Source: Eledone cirrhosa
Lineage: Eukaryota
NCBI GenBank assembly: GCA_964016885.1
Contig: OZ024740.1
Span: 363,816,001 to 363,880,000 of the forward strand
DNA length: 64,000 bases
Reading direction: 5' to 3'
The notes under the pieces are model-generated. The model was not told the origin of the DNA. It did not search any database and saw nothing but the letters and a program-made list of their open reading frames with translations. Below, piece by piece: positions 5,580-14,007 of this stretch (position 1 is the stretch's first letter; every line of letters starts with the position of its first letter). Position numbers and translations under genes: made by a program.

Positions 5580-5892
5580 TTAAGGACAGTACAGGACAAT
5601 ACAGGACGGTACAAATGGGCATTCCTGCATGTAAAAAAAAACAAAAAAAAACAGAGGATGTAATAAAAGAACAATGAAAAAATTCCCCAATAGGGGGGAG
5701 ACTTCCAAGGGCCATCGTGGAGAAAGCCCATTAAAAAAGCCACGGTGACCCTGACCACCAAGGCAAGTGTCCTCTCCCAGTTTTCCACCTTCAATTTACA
5801 GACACATACTCAGAGTAGGCACATTAACACGGGCCATTCTTGCCTCTCTCACCCATCTTTCAACAAAAAGCTGGGAAGAGAGCACCTCCCTC
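5580..5892 (-). mobile_element. Tx1-type LINE 3' fragment
   Basis: Matches the 3' UTR and ORF2 end of the 8185-13790 element. AAT repeats on both sides. Confidence 0.8.
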
Positions 5893-6574
5893 TAATAATA
5901 ATAATAATAATAATAATAATAATAATAATAATAATAATAATAATAATAATGATTTCTTTATTGGCCACAAGGGCTGACATCAAGAAAAACATTACAGACG
6001 ACACAGGACGGTACGATGTGGGTTTTGTGCATGTAAATATTTTTTATTATTTATATAAGAAAAGAAAAGGAAAGGACATAGAAACATATATATATATATA
6101 TATATATATATATATATATATATATATATATATATATATATATATATATATATATATATATATATATTGTTATACTTTGGGAGGGTCATGTTGCCAATAA
6201 GAAACACACGCACCAGATGCTTTCACTTCAATTTAATTTATTATATATTTATAAATTTACAAATTTATAAATTTCTGGTTGGTTGGTTGGTTCCACAACC
6301 AGATAGTTGTTTATATATATATAGTCATAGTTCTTTCGTCACACACTCTGTGACCTCTTCAGTGACTGGGGATTTCTTTCTTCGTTTCGGTGCCTTTCCT
6401 TTCTTCTATCCTACGCCATTTTCAGGGTGATGATGATGATGACGATGATGATGATAATAGTGGTGATGGCGGTGAAGATAGTACTAATGATGTTGGTAAT
6501 GATGGTAATGGTGGTGGTGGTAGGGGTGATGACGATGGCTACCACTATCATCACAATACTTGCATTGATGGATG

Positions 6575-6886
6575 ATATATATATATATATATATATATAT
6601 ATATATATATATATATATATATATATATATATATATATATATATATATATATATATATATATATATATATATATATATATATATATATATATATATATAT
6701 ATATATATATATATATATATATATATATATATATATATATATATATATATATATATATATATATATATATATATATATATATATATATATATATATATAT
6801 ATATATATATATATATATATATATATATATATATATATATATATATATATATATATATATATATATATATATATATATATATATAT
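6575..6886. repeat. (TA)n microsatellite, about 310 bp
   Basis: Perfect TA run; a further run at 6086-6167. Confidence 0.98.
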
Positions 6887-6889
6887 AAA

Positions 6890-11100: not shown

Positions 11101-13790
11101 TGTGGTTGAATTGTGGACAGCCTATGCTAGACCTATCTATTTCCCTACAAAATACCCTATCTAGATATGATCTGGATGACCCACTACAGTTTGTCCAAGT
11201 CCACATTGGCCCATTTGGGAAATCCAACCGGTACCTGTCAGACAGTTGAAAACGTCTGAGCAGGTTTGCAAGGCTTTTACACCATCCTCCCCTATCCACT
11301 AATCCCACACAGTCCCAGCGTGCATCTAAGATCCCGTTCCAGTCACCCACTAACACTAAAGAGTGGGACATTCCAAGAAAGGTCTCCAGACACCAGAAGA
11401 AATCAGGCAGTCCTGTTGGGGCATAGACAGCCACTAGCCTGAAAGCTTGCTCTGGTCACGTCCAGCAACACCAACTTATCTTCTGGGTCCAAGAAGGTGG
11501 CCCGTATCTCAAGATCCAGACTTCTCCGGAACAACACAGCCACTCCCCACCCCCCACCCACCCCAGATACAGGATGGCTTGGAGATGTGTACACCTCGTA
11601 GCCGTCAAAAATGGGTGCAAATGCCTGTGCCTCGGAGATTCTGGTCTCGCTGATTGCCACCACATCTATGTTTAACGACCTGAGATCGTTCAGCAAGTGG
11701 CCTTGCTTCCAAGACAAACCCAGGCCACGTGCATTTATGCTGCCTATCCTGAGAGAAGCCATGTTGGCTAGGATAGGAGGAAAACAAGTGAGAAGGGAAA
11801 AGTAAAAAAATTTACCTGTGGCTCTTCTTTAGGAAGGGGGTGGGTGATCCATCCCTCTGACCAGTGGCAGGTTTCTCCACGCAAACGTCTGTGAATGTTA
11901 TTTTGGTGATGTTCCCTCGGTAGTCTCCAATTGATGTGAGGAACAATTTTTTTTAGTGTCATGTAATTTTTGTGTGTGATTTCTATCATTTTTATGTGTG
12001 TACGGGGTGCAATTTTGGTGGTCTGTACGTAGTTTGTTTCTGTGATGTTGGTGTGGTGTTGAATGTAATTTAAAAGCTTTGTGTTGTCTGTGTCTATGGC
12101 TGTGTATTGTGTCTGCTGTTGGGGTGTTGGTGCTTTCTGTGTTTTCTGTAGTGTTGTTGGAGGTGACGATGGGGTAGATGCTAATGGTGGCCGTGGTGGT
12201 GGTGGTGGTGGTGGTGGATGAGGTGGGGTCGTTTTCATTTTCTTTTTTGGGGTTATTTCTTCCTCTTTTTTTAGAGGGCGAAGTTCTTCCTTTTTTTTGC
12301 TGGAATGATTTTCCATTCTTCGGCCTCATTGCACTCCTTGTCTGATTTAGCAATATCGGGAAGGGGCATGCTCTCCATTGGTTCCATTGGTTCCATTGTT
12401 GTTGGGATAGTGATTTTTCTTTGGCCACTGTGGTCTTGGTTGGTTTGTCCACTCCAGTCATGGGGCACGGCGTGGGGAGAAGGGTGGGCGCGTGCCGGTT
12501 TTGGTGAGTTTGGGGCAGAAGGCCTTAAGGTGCGTCTTGTCACTGCATCCATGACACCTTGGGCACCTACCTTCGACAGTCACGGTTAGATGGCTGCCGT
12601 CAGGTCTATTACATCGGGGATGGCCTCGATGCTCTCATGGTTTGCTTGGATGATTAACTCCATCCCTGACCCTGTCCAATTCTCCTGTCTTATTCGCATG
12701 ACGTCGAGTATAGTTGTTGAATCCTCAATGTCAGCGAGGACAGCCGCCGTCAACCATGTGACCTCCACTGAGGGCGGAACCTGGGTTACTTGAACCCTCA
12801 TTACTCTCTAACCGCAGTATGTGGGCATCATTATTATTTCATCACTGCAGAGTGGTGTAATGGAGTGTGCTCTGGCTTCTTCCGGTGTAGCAAACAGCAC
12901 ATCCACAGTGCCATACCTCGATTCCCGGGCTATGTATGTTGTCTGTACCCAGATGGCACCCATAGCTCTTTGGACCTGTGACTCTGTTGCCCGTTCGACT
13001 CGGCACAATTTTATTCTGATTGTGCGATAGCTGACTGAACACAAAAGCTTGTTTTTAATTATATTAGCTGGGTGGGTGAGATTTACCCTGTGTCCGCTCT
13101 TTTTAACCGAGTTCTTGGCTTGTTTTATCTCCTCATTGGTGGCGTGTACCCATTCAACATTTTTTGTGTCTTTAGCAAAAGATGTGTGTGTTGTGATCTG
13201 CTGTGCTGACTCATCGCTAGTCTTGCCTTTGTTGTTGATGTTGTTGATGTTTTTGTTGGGTTTTTACTTCTGTGTTGCTGCTGTTACAGTTGTTACTCCC
13301 TGGGTTCTTTATGGCTGTTGCTGATGTTATTGTTGTAATTGGGGTGGCGGTGGTGTCTCATCTTTCTAATGATGGGAAATTTTTTTCGTAATTTGCACTA
13401 CTGCTGCTACTGTTCCAGTGGCTGTTGCTGCTGTTGTCACCACCACCGCCACTGTTGCTGCTGCTGCTGTTTCTGTTGTTTTTGCCTTTGCCTTGTGATT
13501 GGACGGAATCGGCTGTTCTACCCTCCAAACAATCCGCGGTTCCTCCCTGTGGGCAATATTTTTCGCCCGCCATGTTTTTTTTAAACAAAAATTTTGGCAG
13601 TACGATTGTAAATAAATACAAATCTGGCCCTTAAGGGCGAGAGATACCATTAAAAAAAACACCTGTTTGAAGAGGGGTTCTTTAACTACACAAGTATGTA
13701 AAGATTACTATATAAAATGTTCGATAAATTCATGAAATTCAACTGACCTACTCCGTTGTAGTTACGCACGTCACAAGAGATTCAGCACAT
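8185..13790 (-). mobile_element. Full-length, frameshifted Tx1/L1-clade LINE (ORF1 plus APE-RT-zinc finger ORF2)
   Basis: ORF2 from 11762 has GSINARGL, LVGDWNG, YLDR (APE); KSPGLDGL, RPITLLNTDFKILAK, VRQGCPLS, AYADDV (RT); CPRC..ETVLHALVQC. ORF1 remnants lie at about 11800-13570. AATAAA near the 3' end and (AAT)n on both sides. Confidence 0.93.
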
Positions 13791-13820
13791 AATAATAATA
13801 ATAATAATAATAATAATAAT

Positions 13821-14007
13821 TGTTTCTACTTTTTGGCACAAGGCAAGTAATTACCCAGTACAGTACTGGTACTTTATTTTATCGACCCTGTAAGGATGAA
13901 AGGCAAAGTTAACCTCGACGGGATTTGAACTCAGACCGTAAAGGGACGTAACTATGCTGGAAAGCATGACGTTCGACCCTAACCGATACTGCTAATTCAC
14001 CACACCT
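13821..14007 (-). mobile_element. Meta-like SINE in an (AAT)n tract
   Basis: Same family as 7968-8154, with AAT repeats on both flanks. Confidence 0.85.

What the first reader, a model, noticed from the sequence alone, without database searches (positions are those of the whole stretch)
5580..14007. Microsatellite-targeting retroelement guild stacked in (AAT)n
Seen: one AAT-seeded cluster holds, in order, Tx1 fragment(-), Tx1 fragment(-), Dong 3' end(+), SINE(-), full-length Tx1(-) and SINE(-), each separated by AAT repeats. The same layout recurs at 31885-41712. Dong always ends in (TAA)n on its own strand; Tx1 and the SINE always end in (ATT)n. The SINE at 7968-8154 duplicated the last bases of Dong plus AATAAT (15-bp TSD), so it inserted into the Dong tail. 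Established: Dong targets TAA repeats, and some Tx1 families are microsatellite-specific. Inference: two unrelated endonuclease types (restriction-like and APE) converged on opposite strands of one microsatellite, and each insertion leaves fresh target for the next, building intronic safe-harbour stacks.
Basis: partly seen in the sequence, partly recalled or inferred. Interest (0 to 1): 0.75.

Follow-up and report, generated by a model that had tools for sequence, protein, structure and literature searches.

The report
Retrotransposons stacked in AAT repeats
Across this probably octopus genome, two unrelated kinds of jumping gene sit in the same AAT repeats facing opposite ways and pile up end to end, likely because their enzymes cut opposite DNA strands, and one of them likely also copies an abundant short repeat that ends in a similar small predicted RNA hairpin.

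Summary
Real and genome-wide. The intronic stack at 5580-14021 has the order and strands described, and the 15-bp SINE duplication is exact. Tx1-like LINEs carry ATT repeats at their 5' ends in 59 of 60 cases (background 2.7%). Dong-like LINEs carry AAT at 11 of 14 full-length and 33 of 48 truncated 5' ends. Neighbour polarity held in 64 of 65 junctions, the exception being an artefact. A young Tx1-like family has about 110 open ORF2s among its top 150 hits and forms head-to-tail arrays; one paralogous empty site already holds (ATT)4.

Corrections: the SINE needs only ATTAT, not a microsatellite. A sister Tx1-like family sits in (ATCT)n instead. Three junctions in the second cluster lack AAT. 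Safe harbour is untested.

Added: the SINE and the Tx1-like families share a 3' hairpin with compensatory stem changes, so the SINE is likely Tx1-mobilised.

Each part has a precedent (Dong/TAA, Kibi/Koshi, SART/TRAS, SINEU); I did not find this combination in seven paper searches. The scan has already reported the same system on other DNA of this genome (8 notes listed). New variant of a known kind.

The parts
5130..5264 (+). Exon of the host MAM-repeat gene; the stack lies in the intron after it (next MAM exon found at about 22915-23322)
   Evidence: AG/GT ends read; Pfam MAM hits
5580..5892 (-). Tx1-like 3' fragment, last ~44 bases (the hairpin) missing
   Evidence: 85% to young family positions 5669-5984 of 6028
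5893..5950 (.). (TAA)19 spacer
5951..7436 (-). Tx1-like 3' fragment of a second ATT subfamily, interrupted at about 6086-7145 by (TA)n, low-complexity DNA and an unrelated SINE
   Evidence: 87-92% to 38144-38605
6890..7140 (+). Unrelated SINE-like repeat (extent approximate); its copies are often preceded by (TA)n, not AAT
   Evidence: Rfam tRNA 20.9 bits, below the gathering score; 18 hits in the 600-kb sample
7437..7453 (.). AAT run shared by the 5' junctions of the Tx1-like fragment and the Dong-like fragment
7454..7960 (+). 3' end of Dong/R4-like LINE family D1 (restriction-like endonuclease region and 3' UTR)
   Evidence: 85.5% to full-length D1 positions 4018-4535; ORF motifs
7953..7967 (.). 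15-bp target-site duplication, left copy (last D1 bases plus two AAT units); right copy at 8155-8169
7968..8154 (-). SINE with A/B-box-like head and 3' hairpin, inserted in the D1 tail
8164..8184 (.). (AAT)7 spacer
8185..13788 (-). Full-length, frameshifted Tx1-like LINE (ORF1; ORF2 with APE, RT, zf-RVT)
   Evidence: Pfam; shared 5' start with other copies; 85% to the young family over 3.7 kb
13789..13820 (.). (ATA)10 spacer: 5' flank of the LINE and tail of the SINE
13821..14006 (-). Second SINE copy
   Evidence: 85% to 7968-8149
14007..14021 (.). (TAA)5 closing the stack
30577..31449 (+). Fragment of the sister Tx1-like family with ATCT repeats at both junctions
31885..41711 (.). Second stack: D2(+), SINE(-), D2(+), D1 piece(+), Tx1-like(-), D1(+), Tx1-like(-), SINE(-), old Dong-like(+), Tx1-like(-); three junctions without AAT

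Best explanation
Two unrelated LINE types sit in the same (AAT/ATT)n tracts in opposite orientations across the genome, likely because each nicks a different strand to prime reverse transcription, and an abundant SINE likely borrows the Tx1-like enzyme. Shown: Tx1-like elements read (ATT)n on both sides of their sense strand, Dong-like elements read (AAT)n on both sides, and the SINE is flanked by 7-22-bp duplications that begin ATTAT. Inferred: the Tx1-like APE endonuclease nicks the AAT-reading strand after ...ATAAT; the primer pairs with AUU repeats at the RNA 3' end (no copy has a poly(A) tail); the Dong-like restriction-type endonuclease uses the other strand. Each insertion leaves repeat on both sides, so later copies would land beside earlier ones, which gives gap-free stacks. 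The SINE and the Tx1-like families end in the same short stem-loop about 16 nt before the tail, predicted to be the signal the Tx1-like protein binds. The sharing likely needs no contact between the two LINE types.
For: 5' flanks with ATT: 28 of 28, 18 of 19, 8 of 8 and 5 of 5 for four Tx1-like 5' end types, none with AAT; D1 full-length 11 of 14 AAT, none ATT; truncated D1 17 of 27, D2 16 of 21; background 2.7%. Neighbour polarity 64 of 65, the exception a match to bare repeat; 17 of 17 in the evenly spaced sample, where 15 of 41 (ATT)4+ tracts touch a member against 6 of 122 tracts of five other repeat types. Array of six intact copies differing by 5-20 bases, some closer to copies on another contig than to neighbours. 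Paralogous empty site with (ATT)4 where the filled site has 8 and 14 units. Hairpin: 53 of 101 loop-like pentamers near a tail lie exactly 16 nt from it; in 11 family representatives the three inner pairs hold in all rows, two of them with changes on both sides, covariation reached by 0 of 500 shuffles. All 157 SINE-type tails had SINE sequence upstream (151 by BLAST, 6 by eye). No poly(A) in 128 Tx1-like ends.
Against: No cleavage or mobilisation assay. Only one empty site, and it is paralogous; laying four runs on one young insertion showed no empty allele. Truncated 5' junctions of the older Tx1-like subfamily carry ATT in only about 8 of 18 resolvable cases (by eye). 15 of 48 truncated Dong-like junctions lack AAT. 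The second array is partly duplication: two identical members, one mosaic, a repeated ~195-bp flank. The hairpin is only 3-4 pairs; the fourth pair fails in 7 of 11 rows; RNAfold of the SINE's last 40 nt prefers another fold; the structure was read from these same sequences and the rows are related. The SINE needs only ATTAT whereas the LINE sits in long tracts, a difference not explained. Searched sets are the best-scoring 30-40 copies, not random.
Confidence: 0.8

Rival explanations
1. The repeats are only templated tails plus annealing: the endonucleases cut loosely, and insertions succeed where the RNA's 3' repeat can pair with the nicked strand. Specificity would come from priming, not cleavage.
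For: The SINE needs only a 5-base match. PMC6007223 (abstract) proposes that 3' microsatellite-like repeats of the RNA set cleavage or priming sites for RTE elements. The ATT and ATCT families have nearly the same endonuclease hairpin-loop region yet different repeats. Filled sites carry more units than the empty one.
Against: Tails alone do not give repeats on the 5' side in 59 of 60 cases, nor the empty site with (ATT)4. Endonuclease swaps moved target specificity between SART and TRAS (PMC7265360, passages). This rival changes the mechanism of choice, not the fact of targeting.
Confidence: 0.3
2. The SINE is moved by a different LINE (RTE, CR1 or L2 type), and its likeness to the Tx1-like 3' end is chance or a relic.
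For: The shared stretch is ~25 nt and AT-rich at its end. RTE and CR1 families are active in Octopus vulgaris (PMC13282606, Table 1). Only three of 58 known SINE/LINE tail pairs were L1-clade (PMC3472496, passages). SINE copies are mostly outside stacks.
Against: Same loop, same 16-nt spacing, compensatory stem changes; same strand polarity and duplication lengths as Tx1-like copies (9-20 bp); at L005 a 30-nt Tx1-like end and a SINE share one 16-bp duplication; no non-SINE body found upstream of 157 tails.
Confidence: 0.2
3. Stacks arise after insertion, by unequal crossover, tandem duplication and retention in tolerant regions, not by repeated targeting.
For: Identical and mosaic members in one array; tandem duplications of mixed units on C5 and C1; many old copies have internal deletions.
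Against: Stacks mix unrelated families with different truncation points; the six-copy array has six haplotypes; duplication does not explain strict polarity between families.
Confidence: 0.1

Closest known systems
Kibi (TC)n, Koshi (TTC)n and crocodilian (TTCC)n/(TTTC)n Tx1-clade LINEs (PMC4494074, passages and section 16; PMC3812793, passages)
   Same: APE-RT LINE of Tx1 type that sits in a microsatellite with repeat on both sides
   Different: Targets here are (ATT)n and, in a sister family 69% identical in ORF2, (ATCT)n; invertebrate host; very many intact young copies; tandem arrays; no tree with named references could be built
Dong (R4 clade) of Bombyx, Anopheles, Biomphalaria, Darwinula (PMC7998251 and PMC3812793, passages)
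   Same: Single ORF with RT, CCHC and restriction-like motif, no N-terminal zinc finger, (TAA)n target
   Different: Nothing essential; two to three families here, and the tract is shared with an APE-type LINE. This part is already known behaviour
SART and TRAS (R1 clade) in Bombyx telomeric (TTAGG)n (PMC7265360, passages)
   Same: Two LINE families inserting into one repeat in opposite directions
   Different: SART and TRAS are both APE elements of one clade at telomeres; here the pair is APE plus restriction-like, in dispersed microsatellites
SINEU with Tx1-Mar in crocodilians (PMC4494074, section 16)
   Same: SINE inferred to use Tx1 machinery from shared target
   Different: SINEU has snRNA heads and poly(A) tails; here the head is tRNA-like and the link is a shared 3' stem-loop with no poly(A)
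Stringent L1-clade SINE/LINE pairs of maize, sorghum and Chlamydomonas (PMC3472496, PMC3747384, passages)
   Same: Conserved 3' hairpin with compensatory changes shared by an L1-group LINE and SINEs
   Different: Animal host, Tx1-type LINE, a much shorter hairpin, microsatellite tail instead of poly(A)

Membership tests
Tx1 clade | ORF2 with APE endonuclease, RT and C-terminal zinc finger; separate ORF1 | tested here: met
   Pfam Exo_endo_phos, RVT_1, zf-RVT on an intact copy; two ORFs
Tx1 clade | RT phylogeny inside Tx1 rather than L1 proper | tested here: inconclusive
   The only named homologue is an automatically named 'Transposon TX1' protein at 311 bits, against 181 bits for human L1 ORF2p (different databases); no named references for a tree
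Tx1 clade | Target preference (more than 20% of flanks by the criterion in PMC4494074) | tested here: met
   59 of 60 ATT; sister family 14 of 15 ATCT
Tx1 clade | Endonuclease sets the target | not testable with these tools
   Needs a nicking or swap assay
R4/Dong clade | Single ORF with RT, CCHC and PD-(D/E)xK-type endonuclease | tested here: met
   1141-aa ORF; best solved matches are R2 proteins, with a weak match over the endonuclease; motifs conserved across 45 sequences
R4/Dong clade | No N-terminal zinc finger | tested here: met
   0 of 45 aligned proteins match a zinc-finger pattern in the first 330 residues
R4/Dong clade | Divergent N-terminal Myb/SANT-like domain (PMC7998251) | tested here: inconclusive
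   A conserved Trp-containing block at residues ~53-120 but no Pfam Myb/SANT hit; structure job not finished
R4/Dong clade | (TAA)n target | tested here: met
   AAT after 50 of 51 D1 and 9 of 9 D2 3' ends; 5' side
R4/Dong clade | RT phylogeny with named R4/Dong elements | not tested
   No hit among 111 was named Dong or R4
tRNA-derived SINE | tRNA-like head with A and B boxes | tested here: inconclusive
   Box-like motifs seen by eye against recalled consensus; no Rfam tRNA hit on 7968-8154 or 13821-14006 at E up to 5
tRNA-derived SINE | Short, non-coding, high copy, target-site duplications | tested here: met
   187 bp; 34 copies with full 3' end in 600 kb; duplications found at 47 of 71 ends
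tRNA-derived SINE | 3' tail shared with a partner LINE | tested here: met
   Shared loop, spacing and covarying stem with Tx1-like families; short, so suggestive only

The most novel reading that the evidence does not exclude
A radiation of still-active Tx1-like LINEs in octopods switches microsatellite target (ATT versus ATCT) with a 64% identical endonuclease, recognises its RNA by a minimal 3-bp stem-loop instead of poly(A), thereby drives one of the main octopus SINE expansions, and together with Dong lengthens and multiplies the genome's AAT tracts so that the community builds its own landing sites.
Probability: 0.4. Interest if true: 0.7.

Novelty: new variant of a known kind. Interest (0 to 1): 0.52.

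Why it matters
It gives a natural pair of intact, closely related LINEs with different microsatellite targets, which makes an open question testable: does the endonuclease or the RNA tail choose a microsatellite? It names a likely autonomous partner for an abundant SINE (SINEs are 11.6% of the O. vulgaris genome, PMC13282606), in a LINE group where shared SINE tails are rare. It explains part of the repeat hotspots and AAT microsatellites of such genomes: 15 of 41 sampled tracts touch these elements, which also matters for using them as markers. It is not a new mechanism of transposition.

Tried and rejected
Empty allele in other runs: one young insertion (L133) laid with 4 of 24 listed runs showed no joint across it; joints at repeats are dropped, so this is inconclusive. 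No RNA holder was listed. Search for young truncated copies by the 3' end returned nothing, probably because very common words are skipped. No tree was built, for lack of named references. The junction-walking step picked the downstream element in some rows, so only its layout lines were used. The SINE pattern required an A after the end, so the unbiased count is that. Pairing of Dong with Tx1/SINE beyond shared tracts: D1 tails face a member in 18 of 29 by eye (16 by BLAST) against 12 of 41 random tracts (p = 0.008; a recount gives 10 of 41), but D2 tails in 9 of 29 (p = 1.0), and three D1 loci look like segmental duplicates; pairing is not claimed. The original Dong paper (PMC309301) was not held; Kojima and Fujiwara 2004 was seen only as cited. 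Repbase and supplements were not consulted and may already list these families and targets.
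Full report
Setting. The window is G000:C1:363816001-363880000 of a 3.0-Gb genome. An octopus-type host is my inference from size and repeat content; papers list Dong-R4, L1-Tx1 and SINEs as recently active in Octopus vulgaris (PMC13282606, first third of the text and passages). 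The window holds exons of a MAM-repeat gene on the + strand (10 of 10 candidate pieces sent to Pfam hit MAM, 8 above the cut-off). Both stacks lie between such exons.

Observation. The layout is as described. Pieces of 8185-13788 match Exo_endo_phos, RVT_1 and zf-RVT, and its 5' start is shared with other copies, so it is full-length though frameshifted. The SINE at 7968-8154 has an exact 15-bp duplication that includes the last Dong-like bases, so it entered the Dong-like tail. Departures: the first fragment lacks its terminal ~44 bases, the second is interrupted by ~1 kb, and the second cluster differs in order and has three junctions without AAT.

The Tx1-like LINE. A protein search found about 110 open frames of 1150 residues or more among the 150 scored hits (counted by eye). 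Twenty-three full-length copies were read (11 in two arrays, 12 picked singly from the intact hits); all had (ATT)n on both sides. The 12 single picks differ by a mean of 48 bases in 6 kb. Over all loci held, after removing identical flanks, ATT lay within 20 nt of the 5' end in 28 of 28, 18 of 19, 8 of 8 and 5 of 5 copies of four 5' end types (the further types lead into related ORF1 or ORF2 sequence where enough DNA was held). Background is 2.7%. None of 128 3' ends had poly(A). Truncated copies of the window's older subfamily are less clean: about 8 of 18 resolvable 5' junctions had ATT, and many copies have internal deletions.

A sister family. The element at 30577-31449 belongs to a family with intact 1150-residue ORF2s, 69% identical to the ATT family and 64% in the endonuclease. 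Its 5' ends carry ATCT in 14 of 15 and ATT in 0 of 15. Target choice therefore differs between close relatives.

The Dong-like LINEs. D1 has a single 1141-residue ORF with RT, CCHC and a restriction-like motif, and none of 45 aligned relatives has an N-terminal zinc finger. AAT follows 50 of 51 D1 and 9 of 9 D2 ends. It precedes 11 of 14 full-length D1, 17 of 27 truncated D1 and 16 of 21 truncated D2 junctions. (TAA)n targeting by Dong is published for insects, molluscs and cnidarians (PMC7998251, PMC3812793; passages).

Polarity and stacking. Of 116 3' flanks examined, 65 had a member within 110 bases; 64 followed the rule (Dong-like one way, Tx1-like and SINE the other), and the exception was a match to bare repeat. 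About 6% of 3000 random points score a neighbour, in both orientations alike. In 60 evenly spaced 10-kb stretches, 15 of 41 (ATT)4+ tracts touched a member, with 17 of 17 contacts in the expected orientation; five other repeat types gave 6 of 122, and (ATCT)n gave 4 of 12, matching the sister family. The six copies of one array differ by 5-20 bases and some are nearer to copies on another contig, as expected from separate insertions; the second array includes two identical copies, a mosaic and a repeated flank, so duplication also acts. A paralogue of the second array's site, met by chance in the sample (L172), is empty and has (ATT)4 at the insertion point, against 8 and 14 units at the filled site. 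This is one case.

The SINE. ATTAT follows 29 of 34 full 3' ends in the sample, against 0.3% at random points, but only 2 of 34 have three ATT units. Duplications of 7-22 bp were found at 47 of 71 ends, preceded by C or T in 43 of 47. So it uses a short motif with the Tx1-like polarity and is mostly dispersed. Its end shares with every Tx1-like family a five-base loop closed by a short stem, 16 nt before the tail in most (53 of 101 candidate sites). In 11 family representatives the three inner pairs hold in all rows, with C-G exchanged for G-C between LINE and SINE; covariation exceeded all 500 shuffles and all slid controls, but the rows are related and the structure was read from them. No other body was found upstream of 157 such tails.

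Mechanism. Shown: positions, polarity, duplications, shared tail. Inferred from established target-primed reverse transcription: the nick lies at the start of the duplication on the strand opposite the element's sense, which puts it after ...ATAAT for the Tx1-like LINE and SINE, and on the other strand for the Dong-like LINEs. Repeat left on both sides serves the next insertion. Whether cleavage or priming selects the repeat is open. No special pairing of the two LINE types is claimed, as D1 and D2 gave opposite answers.

Relation to known systems. Microsatellite-specific Tx1 families, a Tx1-mobilised SINE (PMC4494074, passages and section 16), opposite-direction use of one repeat by SART and TRAS (PMC7265360, passages) and hairpin-sharing L1-clade pairs in plants (PMC3472496, PMC3747384, passages) are all published. 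Seven searches showed no report of ATT- or ATCT-specific Tx1 families in cephalopods or of this SINE link; the library lacks subscription papers and Repbase. PMC4640811, PMC4824008, PMC4758252 and PMC8967140 were seen as passages, PMC6007223 as abstract. The scan's own notes describe the same system at other places of this genome (8 listed of 545 that fit); they are unchecked and were consulted after my reading was formed.

Verdict. A real, well-supported, genome-wide pattern made of known parts with new targets and a likely new SINE partner. New variant of a known kind; interest 0.52.

Noticed in passing
window 528-63998 (+), e.g. 528-842, 3106-3330, 5130-5264, 22915-23322, 29659-29997, 42678-42803, 51545-51835: Exons of a gene made of repeated MAM domains span the window.
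   Followed up: partly
runs X5 and X6 laid on L133:1378-7382: Runs labelled as other organisms cover most of the young Tx1-like element at about 99% identity with low, even depth, while X1 and X7 hold it at very high depth. Contamination or recent transfer; not resolved.
   Followed up: no
window 37388; L158-L159; L099, L101, L104, L115: Several D1 copies are 5'-truncated near the same point (D1 positions ~3780-3795), a possible truncation hotspot.
   Followed up: no
L125-L128 (G000:C1:234590001-234626000): A ~195-bp flank between two ATT runs is repeated three times inside the array: long target duplication or unequal crossover.
   Followed up: partly
L121-L140: Young full-length copies show mosaic haplotypes, suggesting recombination or template switching among active copies.
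   Followed up: no
L176:1954-2170, L009, L014, L022: A second SINE type shares head and 3' hairpin with the first but has a different middle, and uses the same ATTAT sites.
   Followed up: partly
window 3897-4098, 20407-20735, 48896-49018, 57634-57886: A 48-bp tandem repeat family occurs four times in the window.
   Followed up: no
window 6890-7140 and 18 hits in the sample: An unrelated SINE-like family is often preceded by (TA)n, perhaps a parallel preference for another repeat.
   Followed up: no
L065, L078, L086, L090, L133, window 13788: ATT-type Tx1-like subfamilies have at least five unrelated 5' ends, all starting with G after the repeat, suggesting 5' UTR replacement.
   Followed up: partly
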